This document shows, piece by piece, positions 1,711 through 19,533 of a stretch of DNA of 19,735 bases. The notes beneath the pieces were generated by a model. It saw only the letters and a program-made list of their open reading frames with translations, was not told the DNA's origin and ran no database searches. The DNA comes from Octopus sinensis (taxonomy: Eukaryota), in contig NW_021824147.1 of NCBI RefSeq assembly GCF_006345805.1, forward strand, positions 1-19,735, in the 5' to 3' direction. Numbering within the stretch: position 1 is the stretch's first letter; the number at the start of each line of letters is the position of its first letter. The position numbers and the translations under genes are program-made.

Positions 1711-2076
1711 TGTGTGGTAGGTAGCTTGCTTACAAAACACATGGTTCCGGGTTCATTCCCACTGCATAGCACCTTGGGCAAGTGTCTTCTACTATAGCCT
1801 TGGGCCGACCAAAGCCTTGTGAGTGGATTTGGTAGACGGAAACTAAAAGAAGCCCGTCGTATATATGTATGTGTGTGTATATGTTTGTGTGTGTGTTTGT
1901 TCCCCAACATCGCTTGACAACCGATGCTGGTGTGTTCCCCGTAACGTAGTGGTTCGGCGAGAGACTGATAGAATAAGTACAAGGCTTACAAAGAATAAGT
2001 CCTGGGGTCGATTTGCCCGACTAAAGGCAGTGCTGCAGCATGGACGCAGTCAAATGACTCAAACAAGTAAAAGAGA
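1711..2076 (+). mobile_element. tRNA-derived SINE, family A, near full length, with internal (TA/TG)n
   Basis: B-box-like GGTTCATTCCC at 1750-1760, CCTTGGGCAAGT core, internal microsatellite 1861-1900, 3' tail GGCAGTGCTGCAGCATGGACGCAGTCAAATGACTCAAACAAGTAAAAGA. Homologous to copies at 4922, 11217, 14414 and 18165. Confidence 0.85.
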
Positions 2077-3886: not shown

Positions 3887-4003
3887 TCAGGTAAATGCTT
3901 TATTATCCATTCCACTCATTTCGTGTTCTATGTCTTTCTTAGCTTTCTTAGCTTTCTCAGCAGGTCCCCAGTTTTCTGTAGGTGTAGTAATTCGTTGTAA
4001 TCG
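3887..4003 (-). CDS. SLC6 terminal coding exon: [38 protein letters not shown]
   Basis: 117 nt; acceptor cccaacAG after a pyrimidine tract; R.....P...WGP C-tail motif; TGA at 3887-3889. Confidence 0.92.
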
Positions 4004-4032
4004 CTGTTGGGTAGAAAGAAAGAAAATATATA

Positions 4033-4927
4033 GTGTGTGTGTGCGTGTGCGTGTGCGCGTGTGTCTCTCTGTCTCTGTGTGTGTGTCTCTGTGTGTGTCT
4101 CTGTCTGCCTGTGTGTGTGTGTGTCTCTGTCTGCCTGTGTGTGTGTGTGTCTCTGTCTGCCTGTGTGTGTGTGTGTGTGTGTCTCTGTCTGCCGTGTGTG
4201 TGTGTGTGTGTGTCTGTCTGCCTGTGTGTGTGTGTGTGTGTGTGTCTCTGTCTGCGTGTGTGTGTGTGTGTGTGTGTGTCTCTGTCTGCCTGTGTGTGTG
4301 TGTGTGTGTGTGTGTCTCTGTCTGCCTGTGTGTGTGTGTGTGTGTGTGTCTCTGTCTGTCTGCCTGTGTCTCTGTCTGCCTGTGTGTGTCTGCCTGTGTG
4401 TGTCTGCCTGTGTCTGTGTCTGCCTGTGTCTGCCTGTGTCTGCCTGTGTGTGCCTGTGTGTGCCTGTGTGTCTGCCTGTGTCTGCCTGTGTCTGCCTGTG
4501 TCTGCCTGTGTGTCTGCCTGTGTCTGCCTGTGTCTGCCTGTGTCTGCCTGTGTGTGCCTGTGTGTGCCTGTGTGTGCCTGTGTGTGCCTGTGTGTGCCTG
4601 TGTCTGCCTGTGCCTGTGTCTGTGTGTGTGTCTGTGTGTGTGTGTGTGTGTGCCTGTGTGTGTGTGTGTGTGTGTGTGTCTGTGCGTGCGTGTGTGCGTG
4701 TGCGCGTGTGCGCGTGTGCGCGTGTGCGCGTGTGCGTCTGTCTGTGTGTCTCAGTGTGTGTGTCTCAGTGTGTGTGTCTCAGTGTGTGTGTCTCAGTGTG
4801 TGTGTCTCAGTGTGTGTGTCTCAGTGTGTGTGTCTCAGTGTGTGTGTCTCAGTGTGTGTGTCTCAGTGTGTGTGTCTCAGTGTGTGTGTCTCAGTGTGTG
4901 TGTCTCAGTGTGTGTGTCTCAGTGTGT
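4033..4927. repeat. ~0.9-kb compound (GT)n-derived minisatellite
   Basis: Blocks in order: (GT)n+CTCTGTCTGCCT; 10-mers GTGTCTGCCT/GTGTGTGCCT; GTGTGCGC 8-mers; 13 copies of the 14-mer TCTCAGTGTGTGTG (4749-4927). Confidence 0.97.
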
Positions 4928-5185
4928 GGCAAGAACTGCTACTCAAACACATGGCGCTGGGTTCAGTCCAACTGCGTGGCACCTTGGGCAAGTATCTTCA
5001 ACTATTTCCTTGAGCTGACCACAGCCTTGTGAATGGAAACTGAAAGAAGCATGTGGTGTACATATATGTATACATTTGTGTTTGTGTGTCTAGTCATCTC
5101 CGCTTGACAACCGTTGTCAGTGTGTTTAGGTCTCCGTAACATTAGCGGTTCGACAATGGAGACCGATAGATTAAGTACTTATCTA
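4922..5185 (+). mobile_element. SINE family A, diverged, 3'-truncated copy
   Basis: GGGTTCAGTCC..GCACCTTGGGCAAGT..GGAAACTGAAAGAAGC..CGCTTGACAACCG..GACCGATAGATTAAGTAC aligns to the 1711 copy. Confidence 0.8.
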
Positions 5186-5792: not shown

Positions 5793-6269
5793 CTGCAAAG
5801 AGAAATACATGTTTATAGAATTGTTTTCCTCTTCGGTGTCTGTAAAATGAAATGTTGGATAAAATGTGATTTAATAAAATGAAACGTGCATTTTACACAC
5901 AGAGTTGTCCAGCAGGGTGGCATCTTTTGAAAGTTACAACGGTTTATAATATCAGATCGACCAACGTTGTCGCTATAGTGATCTACACTTAATGCATACA
6001 ATCCTACTACTTACATACATACATTTATACTATAAGCACACGCCACATACATGCATACCTACATACATACAATACTTGCTCGTGTGCACTTACACATACA
6101 GCGAGAGAAGCTGCATCTGATTTTTGAGGACACCTCGTTCAAAAGAGGCAGATTTCTCTCCCCCACACACGTACAGTGTGTGTGTGTGGTGTGTGTGTAT
6201 ATTATGAGGGAATATTATTCCAAACTTAAAGGGAAAAATTCAATTTAGAAATACTAAATCAAGTTTCAC

Positions 6270-6932
<663 letters not shown>

Positions 6933-7064: not shown

Positions 7065-7205
7065 TGCCGGCTCCACATTCTAAGTTCAAACACCATCGAG
7101 GTCAACTTTGCCTTTCATTCTTTCGGGATCACTAAAATAATTTGAAAACTGGGATCAATGTAATCGACTTATCCTTCCCTTAAAATCGTTGGCCTTCTGC
7201 CTGAC
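7065..7205 (+). mobile_element. SINE family B copy
   Basis: B-box-like AAGTTCAAACACC, GAGGTCAACTTTGCCTTTCAT, GTAATCGACTT, TGGCCTT; inverted relative to 7215-7422. Confidence 0.75.
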
Positions 7206-7214
7206 TAAAAATAA

Positions 7215-7422
7215 TTCTTTCTTCTAAATGCACAAAGTCTGAAATTGTGGGAGAGGGTGCTGGTCGATTACATGGACTCCAGCACTCAGCTGAAACCGAT
7301 TTCATCGACTCCGAAAGGACGAAAGGAAAAGTTGACCTCGGCGGAATTTGAGCTCAGAACGTGAAGACGGACGAAATGTTGCTAAGTGTTTTTCCCGGTT
7401 TGCTCACAATTCTCCCCGCCTT
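7215..7422 (-). mobile_element. SINE family B, near full-length copy
   Basis: Reverse complement reads ..GAGCTCAAATTCCGCCGAGGTCAACTTTTCCTTTCGTCCTTTCGGAGTCGATG..GTAATCGACC; homologous to 7065, 14812 and 470. Confidence 0.8.
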
Positions 7423-7604: not shown

Positions 7605-7844
7605 CTTGAGAAAAAGAATATTGAATTTATAACGAATTATAGGAAAGCAAAAAAAAAAAAAAAAAAAATCTGTGTTAGTCCCAAACCAGCCTTGGTGAAA
7701 TCGATCTGTATAATCCTGATGCTCCATCCGTGATAATCCCCACTTCTTTAATTGTAGTCTAATATGAGGATACACACCTCAGTCTTACTGATCTGTGGGG
7801 TCGGAATTAAGGTGTTATGTCATTGGTTATTGTAAGGCGACAAA

Positions 7845-8010
7845 AAACAGGAACCAGTCAAGTACTGAGGTCGATATATTGATTTGTCCCCTCTCCTTAA
7901 AAATCGCTAGCCTTGAAACCCTGCAGCGGACAAGCATCCCGTTCAGGAGAAGTGTCACGATATCGGTCACTTTAGGCCATGCAAACCGGCCCTTTGAGTC
8001 CGAGGACCCA
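7845..8010 (+). mobile_element. SINE family B 3' part plus additional 3' module
   Basis: ACCAGTCAAGTACTGAGGTCGAT..CCCCTCTCCTTAAAAATCGCTAGCCTTG followed by CCTGCAGCGGAC..CATCCCGTTCAGG..AAACCGGCCCTTTGAG (mirror of 365-453). Confidence 0.55.
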
Positions 8011-8094
8011 AGAAAAATATTTAAGGCAAGAGACGCAGGTTGTGTAAGGTGACTCGATCTTGCTTTTCTTGGATACCAGCTGTACTCTATGGCA

Positions 8095-8098
<4 letters not shown>

Positions 8099-8127
<29 letters not shown>
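8099..8127. repeat. (CA)n microsatellite
   Basis: Direct reading; lies ~20 nt downstream of the exon j donor. Confidence 0.9.
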
Positions 8128-8130
<3 letters not shown>

Positions 8131-8146
8131 GACATAAAGAACTTAC

Positions 8147-8246
8147 CATAAACCCACATGACAGCAATTAGCTCGCATGCTGCTACACAGAGCACTGAAA
8201 AATCAGCAGCATACCCATCAAGAAGAGAGACGACATAGGTTCCACC
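8147..8246 (-). CDS. SLC6 exon j (TM10): GGTYVVSLLDGYAADFSVLCVAACELIAVMWVY(G)
   Basis: 100 nt; acceptor ttttcAG, donor GTaagt; GG.Y...L.D.Y and E.IA..W.YG motifs. Confidence 0.96.
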
Positions 8247-9005
8247 CTGAAAAAAAACAACAAAAAAAAACTCCTAGAAATAAGATTCTAAAGCAGGTGT
8301 TCTGAAATAGGGGTACAAGGCGTATGCGAAATTTCCAAAATCTTTCAAATTCTGAAATAATTACAGCCACCTGCTGTTCACTGATATTAAGTCTGCGTTG
8401 GGTTTGGCCCTGGTAAGGAAAGAGAGGCAATAAGAAATTTTGAACGGGCGCTACACAATCTGTCCTGAGGAGATGGACTGCAAATTGAAAGTCGTAAGAC
8501 CTCAAAATCCAAGAAGAAAGGCAAAATTGATCTGGATGGGATTTGAACCCACAGCTGCAAACATTCGGAACTAAGGCTGTGAGGAACAGAACGAGACGTT
8601 TTGGCGTAGCCATTTCGGCGCCACTGATTCGACACTGACTTATTTGACATGAGACCTTTTGGTGTTTCTTTCGTTCTCTTTCTCCCTCTCCCGCTCTGTT
8701 TACGAGTGTTAGCTTATTTCTGTTTGTGTGTATGAGGAGAGGGAAAGTGTTTATGTCATTCATGTTCAATTAACAAATTGTAATCTCTCTCTCTCTCTCT
8801 TTGTAAGTTGATATTTCTACGCGCACGCGTGTGCGCGCACATACTCTCGATTGCTTCCAGTGTCAAAACAGTGTCTGAATTCTATCAAAAATTAACGATT
8901 GCCAATATTCTGCATTATTATTCATAACTGGAATTTGGTCTTGTAGAAGTCTGAGAAATGATAACCTTTGGAGTAAAATAAGAGAAACACAAATGTACAA
9001 CTTAC

Positions 9006-9134: not shown

Positions 9135-9385
9135 CTGAAAAAAGAACGAAGAGACAAGGTGTCAAAGCATGAAATAAAGATAGCAAAGAGGCTAAATAGA
9201 TATAAAAATACGCTCCCCCCGCCCAACAAGAAGCAAAAGAAAAGTCGGTTAGTGAAAAATATAAAAGAAACGGAGTAAATCTTAAAGAATAATATATTTG
9301 GAAGAAAATAGGTTAGAGGAGGCCAAAAAATGTCTTGATAACTTGGTCTTGAAAATTCTTTTTTATTTATTTAAAAAAAAATTAA

Positions 9386-10820
9386 TCTAGTTTCAGCTCA
9401 CGAGCTGTGGCCATGCTGGGGCACCGCCATTTTGCGTTGCTACCTAATTTTACTTCATGAATGCTTTTTAGAAATTGACATTAGGTGCATGAGAGAGTTT
9501 GATGCAGCTGCCTTCATCTGCACCTCCTGCTGCGAAGTTGGTTCATCTGACAGGAAGAGGTCCAGCTTTATTTTGAAGACACCTACATCCACCCCATGCA
9601 GGTCTCTCATGTCATTCGGGAGGATATTGAAGAGCTGTGGACCTCTGAAGCCCAATCTATTGCAGTATCTTGTCCTACATCTTGATGGCAAATTTGGAGT
9701 CCTTGGCACTATGCAGTAGCGCCCAGTTCTAGTATTTGTGTAGCTCTCGATGCCAAAGTTTGGGACAAGTCCTTCCAGGATCTTCCAGATGTATATTATG
9801 GCATATCTTTCTCGCCTACGCTCTAAGGAATAGAGTCTTAATCTCTTGAGTCTTTCCCAGTAGCTTATATGCTGCATAGAGGCTATCTTCTTCGTGTAGC
9901 TTCGTTGGATTACCTCAAGTTCTGAGATTATTTTGACACTGGTTGGTGACCATAGCTGAGAGCAATAGTCAAAGTGGCTTAGGACAAGTGTCCTCCAGAG
10001 GACCATCATGGTTTCCTGGTCTCTTGTTCTAAAAGTTCTAAGAATCCATCCGGTCAGCCGCCTACATTTCATTGCCAATTTAGCAACATGCACACGAAAG
10101 GTTGCCTCATTACTCATGTAAATGCCCAGGTCTCGCACTGATTGTGCTTCTGGTATTGCAGTCCCTCCAGGTCCAGTGTATTTATTGGGTATTGCATTTA
10201 GTTTTGCATGCTGATAGGACTCGCTTACGTACTTTTAGAAGGATTGCTGGGAATCCATCAGGGCCAGTAGCTGAGTTTGGGTTCATTTCATTTATAGCCC
10301 TTATTACAACGTCTTCCTTTATATTGATGTAATCAATCATCATTGCCTCTGTTTTTATATCTGCAGTGGTAAATAAGTCAGTTGGATTGCTGACTTAAAA
10401 GTGCCCTAGGGGTGGAGTGAAAATACTTTTGAATTGCTCATTTAGTATTTCACTTATCCTCATTGGATTCCCTGTGAGTGTACCATCTTTTTCGAGGAGT
10501 GGCCCTATCCTGCAGTGAACCGAAGCTGTTTCTTTGGCAAACTTATAGAAAGCTCTGGGGTTAGATTTTATATTGTCTATAGCCCAGGCTTCTTTGTCTG
10601 CTCTTTCTTTTTCATGGGAGAGTTGTAGACTTTTTCAATCTCCAGCAGCTGTATTTCCAGGCTGGACTTTTCACTGTTTTCAATTTGTTTGCTTAGGCGA
10701 TTTAAAACTTTTGTACACCGTCTCATAAGAATTTTCCTCTGCCTGGGGATTTTGTTCTTGTGCACAGGGGCCCTTCTCTCCGGGGGCACATTTGTAGCAT
10801 ATGGCTTGCATTACATATAC
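9386..10820 (-). mobile_element. CR1-group non-LTR retrotransposon (LINE) remnant, 5'-truncated, RT core deleted
   Basis: ORF2-like peptides: linker IKSNPRAFYKFAK..IGPLLEKDG..ISEILNEQFKSIFT; pre-RT NSATGPDGFPAILLK; post-RT VRDLGIYMS..HFDYCSQLWSP..SYWERLKRLRLYSLERRRERYAIIYIWKILEG (track ORF 9455..10138). Frameshifts near 10620 and 10790, a stop near 10395, and a short 3' tail at 9386-9454. Confidence 0.92.
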
Positions 10821-11216: not shown

Positions 11217-11400
11217 TTGTTTCACTCAATAGCCAGTGGCCATGCTGGGGCACGGCCTTGAAGGTATTTAGTCGCATGAATCCACTCCAGAACTTTTATT
11301 TAAAAACTGATACTTATTCTATCGGTCTCTTGACGAGCCACTAGGTCACTGGGACGAAAACAAACCAACACCAATTATCAAGTGATGTAGGGACACATAT
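11217..11400 (-). mobile_element. SINE family A, old 3'-half copy
   Basis: TTGTTTCA..GTGGCCATGCTGGGGCAC..TACTTATTCTATCGGTCTCTT..ACACCA..TCAAG aligns to 14431-14600. Confidence 0.75.
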
Positions 11401-11404
11401 TCAT

Positions 11405-11961
11405 CTCTATATATAGACATCTATCTATCTGTACATCGATATCTATCTATCTATCTGTACATCGATATCTATCTATCTATCTATACATCGATATCTATCT
11501 ATCTATCTATACATCGATATCTATCTATCTATCTGTACATCAATATCTATCTATCTATCTATCTATACATCGATATCTATCTATCTATCTATCTATACAT
11601 CGATATCTATCTATCTATCTATCTATACATCGATATCTATCTATCTATCTATCCATACATCGATATCTATCTATCTATCTATCCATACATCGATATCTAT
11701 CTATCTATCTATCTATACATCGATATCTATCTATCTATCTATCTATACATCGATATCTATCTATCTATCTATCTGTACATCGATATGTATCTATCTATCT
11801 ATCTGTACATCGATATCTATCTATCTATCTATCTATCTGTACATCGATATCTATCTATCTATCTATCTATCTATCTGTACATCGATATCTATCTATCTAT
11901 CTATCTATCTATCTGTACATCGATATCTATCTATCTATCTATCTATCTATCTGTACATCGA

Positions 11962-11994
<33 letters not shown>

Positions 11995-12141
11995 GTACAT
12001 CGATATCTATCTATCTATCTATCTATCTATCTGTACATCGATATCTATCTATCTATCTATCTATCTGTACATCGATATCTATCTATCTGTACATCGATAT
12101 CTATCTATCTATACATCGATATCTATCTATCTGTACATCGA

Positions 12142-12174
<33 letters not shown>

Positions 12175-12321
12175 GTACATCGATATCTATCTATCTATCT
12201 ATCTATCTATCTGTACATCGATATCTATCTATCTATCTATCTATTTATCTGTACATCGATATCTATCTATCTATATCTATCTGTACATCGATATCTATCT
12301 ATCTATCTATCTGTACATCGA

Positions 12322-12362
<41 letters not shown>

Positions 12363-13385
12363 GTACATCGATATCTATCTATCTATCTATCTGTACATCG
12401 ATATCTTTCTATCTATCTATCTGTACATCGATATCTTTCTATCTATCTATCTGTACATCGATATCTTTCTATCTATCTATCTGTACATCGATATCTTTCT
12501 ATCTATCTATCTGTACATCGATATCTTTCTATCTATATATCTGTACATCGATATCTTTCTATCTATATACATCTGTACATATCTTTATCTTGTACATCGA
12601 TATATCTTCTGTACATCGATATCTTTCTATCTATATATCTGTACATCGATATCTTTCTATCTATATATCTGTACATCGATATCTTTCTATCTATATATCT
12701 GTACATCGATATCTTTCTATCTATATATCTGTACATCGATATCTTTCTATCTATATATCTGTACATCGATATCTTTCTATCTATATATCTGTACATCGAT
12801 ATCTTTCTATCTATATATCTGTAATCGATATCTTTCTATCTAATATCTGTACATCGATATCTTTTATCTATATATCTGTACATCGATATCTTTCTATCTA
12901 TATACTGTACATCGATATCTTTCTATCTATATATCTGTACATCGATATCTTTCTATCTATATATCTGTACATCGATATCTTTCTATCTATATCTGTACAT
13001 CGATATCTTTTATCTATATATCTGTACATCGATATCTTTCTATCTATATATCTGTACATCGATATCTTTCTATCTATATATCTGTACATCGATATCTTTC
13101 TATCTATATATCTGTACATCGATATCTTCTATCTATATATCTGTACATCGATATCTTTCTATCTAATATCTGTACATCGATATCTTTCTATCTATATATC
13201 TGTACATCGATATCTTTCTATCTATATATCTGTACATCGATATCTTTCTATCCATATATCTGTACATCGATATCTTTCTATCCATATATCTGTACATCGA
13301 TATCTTTCTATCCATATATCTGTACATCGATATCTTTCTATCTATATATCTGTACATCGATATTTTCTCTATATATATGTAGATA
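11405..13385. repeat. ~2-kb (TCTA/GATA)n-derived minisatellite with a TGTACATCGATA core, converging on a 30-bp unit
   Basis: Left half: core plus variable (TCTA)n. From 12361: 30-mer CTGTACATCGATATCTTTCTATCTATATAT and variants. Confidence 0.97.
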
Positions 13386-13499
13386 TGTATAACTTTTATG
13401 TTCTATAATAATTTCCAATAAATGCTTATTAGCAGATATGTTGAACAGATCTCTCAACTGGCATTATGTGTGTACATACACACGTACACCTATAAATAA

Positions 13500-13719: not shown

Positions 13720-14413
13720 CTGAAACAGACAGAAGAGGAAATTAATAAGATTACCGAGGAAATTTGTGGCGTTCAATGGATTTCTGAACGATACTAACGC
13801 TGTGAAAGAAGTGACGTCACCCAATTATTGAAACTGACCGCACGGTTTCGATACCCTACCCAGCTCGTCAGGAAATGATTATTTCTACCCAATAACAGTA
13901 AGTCATATGTTTAGAGTAGTGAGTACTAGTCAATCTCATTGACAACTCCGGAGAGATGTTAGTATTTGCGTTGGATTTGAACTCAGTACAAAAGGAGTTG
14001 AATACCAAATAACTTTTTTGCCCGGCTTCATCCCACCCACGAGAAGGTAACTGTATAAATCCCGCTTCCTCATAACTATTGGATTCGTGACACTTTTTGC
14101 ATCAGACCAATACAAGTTTGAAGCCCGAGTGAGTGGGACTGGATCTGCACAAATCATGTCCACTGTAATAATATTCATCTTGCAAGCTGTTCAGTAGACC
14201 AAGGCACCAGTGAAACTGTGTCTTGTTGAATCTTCATTGGTTGAAGCAATGAGAGTGTCCACCCTCTATAATAGAACATTATCAAAGCTGAGCCTTTTCC
14301 CTCGAAAACAAACCAGCCTTCACCAGGAGTACTAGTGTAGTTAGCAATTCAGTTGAATTAACCACGGCACAGGAGGAGGTGTCCCGGACGTCGTGATTAT
14401 ATATATGTATGTA

Positions 14414-14696
14414 TTCTTTTACTCTTTTACTTGTTTCAGTCATTTGACTGTGGCCATGCTGGAGCACCGCCTTTAGTCGAAGAAATCGACCCCGGGACTT
14501 ATTCTTTTGTAAGCCCAGTACTTATTCTATCGGTCTCTTTTGCCGAACCGCTAAGTGACGGGGACGTAAACACACCAGCATCGGTTGTCAAGCAATGCTA
14601 GGGAGACAAACACAGACACTCAAACACACACACACATACATATATATATACATATATATACGACAGGCTTCTTTCAGTTTCCGTCTACCAAATCCA
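14414..14696 (-). mobile_element. SINE family A, 5'-truncated, well-preserved copy
   Basis: Reverse complement of 1824-2076, including the internal (CA)/(TA) tract and the (TCTTTTAC) tail repeats. Confidence 0.88.
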
Positions 14697-15529: not shown

Positions 15530-15702
15530 CTGGAACGAAAAAGCACCCAGTACACAGTGTAAAGTGGTTGATGTTAGGAAAGGCATTCGACCGTACAAAC
15601 CATTCCAAAGCATTGGAGCATGCTACAGTCCTTGAAACCATTGGAACTTACCAAATTTTCCGACCCATATAAGCGAGGAACATGGACGTTAAATGATGAT
15701 GA
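15530..15702 (+). mobile_element. SINE-like family C copy with (TGA)n tail
   Basis: AAAAGCACCCAGTACAC.GTGTAAAGTGGTTG.TGTTAGGAA.GGCAT..GGACGTTAAATGATGATGA; second copy at 5410-5575. Confidence 0.6.
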
Positions 15703-15720
15703 AATTCTTTGAAAACTTAC

Positions 15721-15855
15721 CGATAAATCAGTAAATTTGTTCCAGTCTGGAATTATAAACTTTTTTATGCCTTTAATGGCTCCAGGCATCGTACATCCAC
15801 GGACTAAGAGAATCAGAAGAATGATATAAGGAAATGTTGCTGTGAAATACACCAC
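15721..15855 (-). CDS. SLC6 exon e (TM5): [45 protein letters not shown]
   Basis: 135 nt; acceptor ttttcAG, donor GTaagt; lies within track ORF 15574..15960. Confidence 0.97.
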
Positions 15856-16564
15856 CTGAAAAAGAGATTTTAAAGAAAAAATTACTAATGGATCGAATGT
15901 GTTACGAACAGGTATTCGTCGTCTCCGGGGTTCGAATCTGTCGAATTGTATTCGGAACAAATATGCAAGTCTTTGAAAATTAATATTTTTATAACTGAAT
16001 CAGACAGTTGTGTAATGATCTGCTTTATTAGCGACAGAATCAGTATTAGTCCGGTATAGTATTTTGTATATCTAAGGATATATCATGGAGCCCTCACCAG
16101 TTGAGGACTCCATGGCAAGATAATATCACAGGTAAGCCTTTATGTTAGGGGTTACTATATTTAATGTGACCACCGTTTCCTCAAGTTTTGACTACGTCAT
16201 TATTCTTTAACTGCTATTCACAGATGACAATCCCTAATTAAAATCAAAATTTCAGTTGTCTACATATATGATTGCATATTCGATGATGTTCAACCTGTTC
16301 TGATTGAGCATATCTCTCAACAGCATTCCAGCCATGACATCACAATTTTTGTATATCACTGTCTAATTCCTCGCTCTTTAGGAGAGAAGAGTGTGATTTG
16401 AGGGAGATATTGCTTCTATTTCTAGCAGGTCAAAAGACTGCGTAGAATATCTTCTTCCCGATGGAACAAGATGTACAGAATATATGTGATGATTATTTTT
16501 TGTTTTTGGTTAATCGTTACAAAGTTCTTAAACATTTCTAATCACAGGTAATCATTTGTCTTAC

Positions 16565-19171: not shown

Positions 19172-19533
19172 CAGTATACATTTAAATACATAAGAGGTAT
19201 CCATCATATGATTCCTGACACGCTGGAAGGAACAGCCAAAATCCAAACCTCTATTAGAGATAAACTTCGAAGGGAAAGAAAAATAAAAACACAGACCATC
19301 AAACTCCAGGACCATGGTTTTTGACTAAGCGTACCTGTTGATGAAGACTTCGCCTAGCGAATTATTCTATTTGCTATAAAAAGCCAGAAACCATGGTCCA
19401 GGCGATAGAGAGTAAGTGTTTTATTTTTAATTCCCTTCGAAGTTTATATCTAATAGTGGTCTAGATTTTGGCTGTACTTTCTAGCATGCCAGGAATCCTA
19501 TGATTGATACCTCTTATGTTTAAATGTACACTG
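19172..19533. mobile_element. Palindromic MITE, Tc1/mariner-type (TA|CAGT...ACTG|TA)
   Basis: Inverted arms ~19172-19326 and ~19382-19533 (roughly 80-85% identical by eye), TA on both flanks (19170-19171, 19534-19535), CAGT termini, no coding capacity. Confidence 0.85.

What the first reader, a model, noticed from the sequence alone, without database searches (positions are those of the whole stretch)
9386..9428. LINE and SINE share a 3' tail with a co-varying hairpin: a candidate LINE-SINE partnership in one locus
Seen: just downstream of the LINE ORF2 stop, 9390-9428 matches the SINE A tail at 14433-14471 at 30 of 39 nt. Eight of the nine differences fall inside one inverted repeat that stays perfectly paired in both elements: LINE RNA CAGCUC-GU-GAGCUG versus SINE RNA CAGUCA-AA-UGACUG (realistically a 5-bp stem with a 4-nt loop). 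Established: many tRNA-derived SINEs acquire the 3' end of a partner LINE, and CR1/L2-type ORF2 proteins recognise a 3' stem-loop. Inference: this CR1-group LINE, or a close relative, mobilises this abundant SINE, and recognition depends on structure rather than loop sequence.
Basis: partly seen in the sequence, partly recalled or inferred. Interest (0 to 1): 0.72.

Follow-up and report, generated by a model that had tools for sequence, protein, structure and literature searches.

The report
Shared LINE tail swapped among SINEs
A jumping gene (LINE) and a very abundant short repeat (SINE) in this animal genome, likely an octopus, end in the same 39-base tail, predicted to fold into two hairpins; the SINE likely borrows the copying enzyme of this LINE group, probably from a sister family, and many insertions consist of just this tail, alone or joined to U6, tRNA, 5S or another SINE, which would be raw material for new SINEs.

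Summary
Observation confirmed (30/39). The tail is the true 3' end of this LINE family: 27 of 30 copies found with a tail-free query carry it, and one more with an indel. It is predicted to fold into two hairpins, not one. At least five related LINE families share it, with three compensatory changes among 13 family representatives. The window's family is the poorest match to SINE A (29-30/39, different end repeat). Family C (35-36/39) shares its stem, and B/F share its end repeat. A different, young SINE subfamily carries the window-family tail. So the partnership holds for the clade, probably not for this family. 'Structure, not loop' is untested: 27 of 39 positions are invariant. Beyond the finding: 20 of 30 position-ordered family-A copies start within -5..+6 nt of the first hairpin (tail only), against 0 of 38 SINE A copies. 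A U6 3'-end motif lies directly before such tails 44 times (control 0); tRNA and 5S joins also occur. The scan noted these small-RNA fusions before, on other DNA of this genome. Shared SINE/LINE tails are textbook; the sharp boundary is the variant.

The parts
9382..10800 (-). Dead, 5'-truncated copy of LINE family A (CR1-group by recalled motifs). About 720-730 nt of the RT core are deleted at 10212/10217, and there is a 9-nt in-frame deletion near 9547.
   Evidence: blastn against other copies, 87-94% identity; 9-nt gap; related copies L319 and L046 hit Pfam RVT_1
9455..10217 (-). ORF2 C-terminal part ending in TGA at 9455-9457
   Evidence: no Pfam hit for this part alone
10212..10800 (-). 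ORF2 remnant upstream of the RT core, with stop codons; by position likely the EN-RT linker
   Evidence: frames printed; position inferred
9429..9454 (-). 26-nt family-specific 3' UTR spacer between stop and tail
9409..9428 (-). Predicted hairpin SL1 (tail positions 1-20, loop YCCA), almost invariant across families. Its 5' base marks the boundary where tail-only copies and chimeras begin.
9394..9407 (-). Predicted hairpin SL2 (5 bp, 4-nt variable loop): the hairpin of the finding, LINE-A form CAGCU-CGUG-AGCUG
9358..9393 (-). Conserved AAAC followed by the degraded family-A end (TAGAT plus A-rich short repeats)
14412..14696 (-). SINE A copy, 5'-truncated (lacks the first 127 nt of a full copy of about 420 nt, so no tRNA-like head)
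   Evidence: blastn to full copy L086, 92%
14433..14471 (-). SINE A tail: SL1 at 14452-14471; SL2 at 14437-14450 (CAGUC-AAAU-GACUG); followed by the AAG(TAAAAGAG)n end
1711..2075 (+). Near-full SINE A copy: tRNA-like head, CCTTGGG CORE motif at 1772-1778, microsatellite, degenerate tail at 2026-2064
   Evidence: motif named in PMC5786205
11205..11397 (-). Older SINE of the same kind (called SINE B here), tail at 11219-11257 with a decayed SL2
4937..5179 (+). Old SINE A-like fragment without tail
   Evidence: 69% identity

Best explanation
The 39-nt segment is the shared 3' end of a clade of related LINE families and of several SINEs, predicted to fold into two hairpins that the LINE's ORF2 protein likely binds to start reverse transcription, so SINE A likely spreads with an enzyme of this clade, probably first taken from a sister family (C-, B- or F-like) rather than from the window's family A. 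Shown: tail attachment, family-level pairing, tail similarity ranks, and a sharp 5' boundary. At that boundary, 3-5 nt before the first hairpin, most family-A insertions begin, and U6, tRNA, 5S rRNA and other SINE bodies are joined to tails there. Inferred: ORF2p binding; which family drives SINE A; and why the boundary is sharp. Likeliest is a short tail RNA protected by ORF2p and the hairpin, from whose 5' end the RT ends or jumps to another RNA. Such jumps would give new SINE/tail combinations, as in the young SINE C' that carries a family-A tail.
For: Tail on 27 of 30 loci from an ORF-only query, self included, plus L040 with a 1-nt indel. Family C: 28 of 30. Family B: 22 of 30 by my count of core matches of at least 16/22 (query). 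SINE A bodies: 71 of 71 carry it. Two-hairpin fold, z -2.3 (LINE) and -4.0 (SINE). On 13 real family representatives 156 of 156 cells pair, 3 pairs change on both sides, covariation score 0.186 against 0.098 shuffled (0 of 500); slid controls pair 21-41%. On the ORF2 tree ((C,E),(B,((G,D),A))) these map, by my reading, to three separate events. Tail identity to SINE A: C 35, E 34, F 33, B 32, D 31, A 29-30 of 39; end repeat F 15, B 14, C 12, A 6-8 of 18. One SINE A body carries a family-C tail (L419). Tail-only copies: 20 of 30 for A with mutually unrelated flanks; 9 of 30 for C start at -5..+15 with unrelated flanks, plus L419; 0 of 38 for SINE A (Fisher p 4e-10). U6-end plus tail: 44 hits, control 0. 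Of 40 fetched, 17 carry A-type, 16 SINE-type, 4 D, 2 F and 1 unclear tail; 35 of 40 align to U6 over at least 30 nt. 5 of 60 tail-only loci have U6, tRNA or 5S directly before the tail.
Against: No binding or mobilisation assay. Covariation rests on about three independent events, too few for R-scape-type significance. Three of the 13 rows (A4, E, E2) came only from patterns that demanded pairing, and pairs-with-both-sides-changed was reached by 38 of 500 shuffles. Family C is small (136 exact SL2 matches, against about 125,000 tails) and its closest pair is 96.7% while SINE A reaches 99.0% over 120 nt, so a younger driver is needed, and family A is the most abundant and youngest LINE sampled. 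SINE A shows (TA)n after the end in 8 of 44 (random 14%) against 47-83% for LINE A, B, C, so none of the sampled families fits fully. No LINE with the exact AAAU loop was found (30 of 545 loci plus 20 picked). The U6 pattern allowed only 0-10 nt before the tail, so it cannot show that U6 joins are rarer further upstream. Position-ordered samples come from the first part of the largest contigs.
Confidence: 0.7

Rival explanations
1. Family A itself, the window's LINE group, is the main driver of SINE A; its ORF2p ignores the SL2 loop and the end repeat and reads SL1 plus GAAAC.
For: It is the most abundant tail-bearing LINE group (8,741 exact tails) and has the youngest copies (nearest neighbours 97.5%), overlapping the young SINE A subfamily. 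The SL2 loop varies even inside group A (CGUG, CAUG, CAUU, CAUA, CAAG). U6 joins SINE and A tails at the same boundary.
Against: Worst tail and end-repeat match; (TA)n neighbourhood 47-75% against 18-27% for SINE A; loop-specific recognition in ZfL2; SINE C' fits family A better on tail, youth (98.3%) and (TA)n (13 of 20).
Confidence: 0.2
2. The sharp boundary is a stall of the reverse transcriptase at the base of SL1 on full-length RNA, not a trimmed RNA; jumps and 5' joining follow the stall.
For: Explains tail-only copies and chimeras without a new RNA species; template switching is the standard model for U6/L2 chimeras (PMC4476161).
Against: A stall would be expected on entering a hairpin from its 3' side, yet 0 of 30 A copies end deeper than 5 nt inside SL1. 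SINEs with the same hairpins are rarely tail-only: 0 of 38 SINE A; 0 of 19 copies with the C'-type end, while the 11 copies with the same loop and another end repeat, presumably from a LINE, are all tail-only or shorter. Unselected U6 and 5S copies sit at the 5' end of full SINEs, which fits jumps from an RNA's 5' end.
Confidence: 0.3
3. The 9390-9428 segment is an independent SINE remnant, or chance, and there is no partnership.
For: Such tails are very common in this genome, so adjacency in one window proves nothing.
Against: Same tail at the same distance from the stop in 27-28 of 30 copies, with family-specific stem, loop and end repeat.
Confidence: 0.01

Closest known systems
CR1-14_CGi with BivaV-SINE2 and BivaCORE-SINE1; L2 with BivaCORE-SINE2 (Nishihara et al. 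2016, PMC4824008; passages, section 11, supplement parts 1 and 3 read)
   Same: Molluscan tRNA-headed SINEs share a 3' tail with a CR1-group LINE; stem-loops with compensatory changes are used as evidence of partnership.
   Different: By eye the printed bivalve CR1-type tails do not resemble this tail. Here there are two short hairpins, at least five LINE families and a sharp 5' boundary. The paper names no LINE partner for the octopus SINE in the passages read.
Bivalve HCD-SINE partnerships with CR1-Zenon, CR1, L2 and Nimb (Martelossi et al. 2024, PMC11481361; passages read)
   Same: Shared 3' ends of 35-61 bp at 72-95% identity; one LINE tail shared by several SINE superfamilies; module shuffling.
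   Different: 'octopus' and 'cephalopod' do not occur in the main text; its supplements were not read.
Stringent LINEs ZfL2-1 and ZfL2-2 (Hayashi et al. 2014, PMC4176376; abstract and section 13 read)
   Same: ORF2p recognises a 3' stem-loop; stems are exchangeable.
   Different: There the loop is the specificity determinant; here the SL2 loop varies and SL1 does not. Nothing was assayed here.
U6/L2 and U6/Mon-1 chimeras of platypus, U6/AnolisSINE2 of anole (Doucet et al. 2015, PMC4476161; passages and section 10 read); U6/L1 RNA ligation by RtcB (Moldovan et al. 2019, PMC6789731; abstract and outline read); tRNA/5S-L1 chimeras (PMC13174262; passages read)
   Same: U6 joined to the 3' piece of a LINE and of its partner SINE; a 'short L2 sequence' in platypus; template switching proposed as the route to new SINEs.
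   Different: Here the LINE part is reduced to the tail at a boundary of about 12 nt, which also yields two-thirds of family-A insertions. tRNA and 5S are in sense orientation, full or near full, with a 3' trailer, whereas L1 chimeras mostly hold antisense fragments.
Octopus CORE-SINEs OR1/OR2 (Ohshima and Okada 1994; not held, known only from citations in PMC4824008 and PMC4758252)
   Same: tRNA-derived CORE-type SINEs of octopus; SINE A may be one of them.
   Different: Sequences could not be compared (SINEBase supplement not held). The 2013 table of 58 SINE/LINE pairs has no octopus entry (PMC3747384, 'octopus' 0 occurrences).

Membership tests
Stringent SINE/LINE pair with common tail | Tail is the regular 3' end of the LINE family | tested here: met
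   27 of 30 (+1 with indel) for A, 28 of 30 for C, 22 of 30 for B
Stringent SINE/LINE pair with common tail | Tail is the regular 3' end of the SINE family | tested here: met
   71 of 71 SINE A body hits in 1 Mb
Stringent SINE/LINE pair with common tail | Conserved stem-loop with compensatory changes | tested here: met
   only about three independent events
Stringent SINE/LINE pair with common tail | Same terminal repeat in SINE and this LINE family | tested here: not met
   SINE A ends AAG(TAAAAGAG)n; family A ends TAGAT/TAGAAT plus other repeats, 6-8 of 18 identical; B and F 14-15 of 18
Stringent SINE/LINE pair with common tail | Overlapping activity period and insertion signature | tested here: inconclusive
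   Median pairwise identity SINE A 0.907, C 0.906, A 0.925, C' 0.983; (TA)n neighbourhood differs for SINE A; target duplications short or absent (6 of 26 at 6 nt or more, no chance control)
Stringent SINE/LINE pair with common tail | ORF2p binds the tail and mobilises the SINE in trans | not testable with these tools
   Needs an assay
CR1-group non-LTR retrotransposon | ORF2 with non-LTR RT domain | tested here: met
   RVT_1 E 5e-29 and 2.5e-24 in group-A copies, 1.6e-18 in D; no hit in 2 of 5 frames, which lie mostly outside the domain; Atlas top hits RVT_1
CR1-group non-LTR retrotransposon | Placement in CR1, Zenon, L2, Crack or Daphne on an RT tree with reference elements | not testable with these tools
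   No Repbase or Dfam references held; the label rests on recalled C-terminal motifs and on short tandem end repeats
CR1-group non-LTR retrotransposon | APE endonuclease and ORF1 | not tested
   No full-length copy was fetched
tRNA-derived CORE-SINE | tRNA-like head with A and B boxes | tested here: inconclusive
   Box-like motifs at the expected spacing in SINE A and C' by a loose regex; no tRNA hit for these heads in Rfam
tRNA-derived CORE-SINE | CORE domain after the head | tested here: inconclusive
   The conserved CCTTGGG named in PMC5786205 follows the head (window 1772-1778); no full CORE alignment possible
Small-RNA/LINE chimeric retrocopies (group IV) | Small RNA in sense, joined 5' of a LINE or SINE 3' piece | tested here: met
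   Rfam U6 at gathering in 11 of 20 scanned
Small-RNA/LINE chimeric retrocopies (group IV) | One target duplication around the whole chimera | tested here: inconclusive
   Only short or AT-rich candidates; no empty sites available

The most novel reading that the evidence does not exclude
This LINE clade makes, as its main product, a free ORF2p-protected tail RNA of about 60 nt, trimmed to the base of the first hairpin. This is inserted alone (two-thirds of family-A copies) or joined to whatever Pol III RNA is at hand (U6, pre-tRNA, 5S, existing SINE bodies). It would act as a standing factory of ready-made SINEs, and would explain both tail swapping and why SINEs dominate this genome.
Probability: 0.35. 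Interest if true: 0.7.

Novelty: new variant of a known kind. Interest (0 to 1): 0.45.

Why it matters
The partnership alone is textbook, though an octopus SINE/CR1-group pair did not turn up in my searches or in the 2013 table of pairs; Repbase, Dfam and Ohshima and Okada 1994 could not be seen. SINEs dominate octopus repeats (PMC9068888, passage), and this tail marks about 125,000 exact sites. More useful: one genome holds a graded natural series of tails (at least five LINE families, three SINEs) with swapped stems and loops, ready for a direct test of what ORF2p reads. It also holds snapshots of the proposed route to new SINEs at one sharp boundary: tail alone, tRNA/5S/U6 plus tail, an old SINE body with a new tail that then amplified. 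Two searches for such a truncation hotspot found nothing relevant; both were narrow phrase searches.

Tried and rejected
First genome search included the tail: biased, so it was repeated with an ORF-only query. L052 and L054 lack the tail: L052 breaks off before it; L054 was not resolved. Copy-level covariation was not used, because decay after insertion is unselected; family representatives were used instead. The 6-bp stem with a 2-nt loop was rejected. Homology to bivalve CR1-type tails was rejected by eye. Search for a LINE with the exact SINE A loop: none among 30 of 545 pattern loci plus 20 picked ones. The F tail has no known body. Rfam at E-value level on L138 and L111 gave only microsatellite noise. 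ARAGORN at a lowered threshold was noise. Sequencing runs: no RNA holder listed. Laying two RNA runs of a related organism gave 575 and 601 diverged reads and no pile-up of molecule ends; ordinary cDNA libraries cannot show a 60-nt RNA, so this is no evidence either way. Contigs of two other organisms hold related copies, one spanning tail and ORF end. Two tree rows (C_L255, B_L222) have long branches, probably from truncated or misaligned copies; the outgroup row was left out and the root is midpoint. No full-length LINE was examined. Papers not held: PMC231371, PMC15861, PMC4795812; SINEBase and Martelossi supplements were not seen and may name a partner.

Full report
1. Observation. The LINE end (9390-9428) and the SINE tail (14433-14471), both on the minus strand, match at 30 of 39. 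Eight differences lie in the 14-nt inverted repeat: two compensated stem pairs and four loop letters. The tail starts 26 nt after the ORF2 stop. Chance is excluded: 76 tail-core hits in 600 kb against 0 in shuffles, and 124,951 exact genome matches against 0 for the control. The genome (G000, 2.7 Gb) is likely an octopus; that label is recalled, not from a call.

2. The tail belongs to the LINE. A query from ORF2 alone gave 30 loci, the window's own included. 27 carry the tail at 30/39 or better at the expected distance, one more has a 1-nt indel, and two lack it. The window copy is dead: 5'-truncated, with about 725 nt of the RT core missing. Related copies carry RVT_1. The CR1-group label is recalled and was not tested against references. 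All 71 SINE A bodies found in 1 Mb of evenly spaced stretches carry the tail. Of 121 tail hits in that 1 Mb, 102 have a SINE body upstream and 4 have ORF2.

3. Structure. Both tails fold into two hairpins: SL1 (positions 1-20) and SL2 (22-35), z -2.3 and -4.0; with flanks the LINE z falls to -1.1. Pattern and ORF-only searches found further LINE families with the same tail: B, C, D and E, subfamilies of A, and an orphan tail F. On 13 real representatives every pair is kept. Pairs 25-32, 26-31 and SL1 pair 3-18 change on both sides; score 0.186 against 0.098 shuffled (0 of 500), though the count of such pairs was reached by 38 of 500 shuffles. On the ORF2 tree these are about three events, so this is supportive, not statistically decisive. 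Three rows came only from patterns that demanded pairing. 27 of 39 positions never vary. The SL2 loop, linker position 21 and loop position 9 are free.

4. Which LINE? Against SINE A the tails score C 35, E 34, F 33, B 32, D 31 and A 29-30 of 39; the next 18 nt score F 15, B 14, C and E 12, A 6-9. C shares the exact SL2 stem, and one SINE A body ends in a C tail. Against C: only 136 exact SL2 hits and no very young copies. For A: 8,741 tails and the youngest copies. (TA)n follows LINE A, B and C ends in 47-83% of copies but SINE A in 8 of 44 (random 14%). So the clade fits, no sampled family fits fully, and family A fits worst by sequence. Family A has a better partner: SINE C', 98% alike between copies, with an A-type tail and (TA)n in 13 of 20. 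The invariant SL1 and GAAAC are the likelier common signal (inference).

5. A sharp boundary. Anchoring on SL2 only, the first 30 of 4,241 family-A hits split into 20 that begin between 5 nt inside and 6 nt before SL1, none deeper inside, none from 16 to 100 nt, and 10 of 126 nt or more. A constant truncation rate taken from the long copies predicts 2% in that window (p about 1e-27). The 20 flanks are unrelated to each other and hold no ORF2. Family C shows 10 of 30 at -5..+15, one of them the SINE A chimera; about half of the 30 CAGCC-type loci show the same. SINE A shows 0 of 38. At the same boundary U6, two tRNA-Glu-like copies, tRNA-Arg and 5S precede bare tails in 5 of 60 tail-only loci (ARAGORN on 60, Rfam on 58 of them). 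Genome-wide, a U6 3'-end motif lies within 10 nt of a tail 44 times, control 0. Of 40 fetched, 35 align to U6 over 30 nt or more, 21 nearly in full; 17 have A-type, 16 SINE-type, 4 D, 2 F tails and 1 unclear, each keeping a few family-specific bases before SL1. That SINE and LINE tails behave alike here is independent support for shared machinery. The pattern could not see joins further upstream.

6. Mechanism. Shown: shared tail, pairing across families, boundary, chimeras. Inferred: ORF2p binds the two hairpins and primes at the end repeat; SINE A took its tail from a C/B/F-like family and is copied in trans by this clade. The boundary likely reflects a short protected tail RNA from whose 5' end the RT finishes or jumps. 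U6 and 5S copies met by chance sit at the 5' ends of SINEs (5 of 5), and SINEs are rarely tail-only, which fits better than a stall. RNA ligation as for U6/L1 is not excluded.

7. Known and new. SINE/LINE common tails with compensated stems are published for bivalves, and U6 chimeras with stringent LINEs and their SINEs for platypus and anole. I found no octopus pair (searches; table) and no report of a fixed truncation point; key sources were not held. Earlier scan notes, read after my own tests, describe the small-RNA/tail fusions elsewhere in this genome (e1-9504912, e1-9505443). Others describe Tx1-linked SINEs, probably other families (not checked).

8. Verdict. Observation confirmed; interpretation partly supported. 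Known kind of partnership with an unusual sharp-boundary variant. Interest 0.45.

Noticed in passing
window 15577-15999 and 7830-8273, minus strand: Frames holding exons of a sodium:neurotransmitter symporter (SLC6/SNF) gene, Pfam SNF E 4e-15 and 1.5e-07. The LINE and two SINE copies lie between them on the gene's strand, so likely in introns.
   Followed up: partly
L138:9406-9620 and L304, L307, L318, L322, L326, L361-L390: SINE C': a young (98% pairwise) tRNA-headed SINE of about 200 nt plus end repeat, carrying a family-A-type tail. The same head and body carry several other, unrelated tails in the 1 Mb sample. 19 of the first 30 of 765 pattern hits are this subfamily.
   Followed up: yes
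L389:1393-1540, L383, L402, L167:1357-1550, L341: tRNA-Arg(ACG), two tRNA-Glu-like copies, 5S rRNA and U6, each followed within about 25 nt by a bare LINE tail, the tRNAs and 5S with short trailers.
   Followed up: partly
L404:2199-2302, L022, L343:96-214, L387, L130: U6 and 5S copies met by chance in flanks sit directly before the 5' head of SINEs: 5 of 5 such copies.
   Followed up: no
L438, L439: An otherwise unseen tail type F (SL2 loop GGAU) with the SINE A end repeat, seen only in two U6 chimeras; its parent element was not found.
   Followed up: partly
L419: SINE A body ending in a family-C LINE tail and end repeat.
   Followed up: no
LINE families A, B, C and SINE C' loci: (TA)n lies within 60 nt after the tail in 47-83% of copies, against 14% at random and 18-27% for SINE A: a possible target preference.
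   Followed up: partly
window 3890-4780, 6260-6930, 11300-13400: Long low-complexity tandem arrays (CA/CT-rich, AT-rich, 8-30 nt period).
   Followed up: no
window 19188-19288 and 19419-19519; 7067-7126 and 7311-7370: Inverted repeat pairs of 101 nt (87%) and about 60 nt (80%), MITE-like.
   Followed up: no
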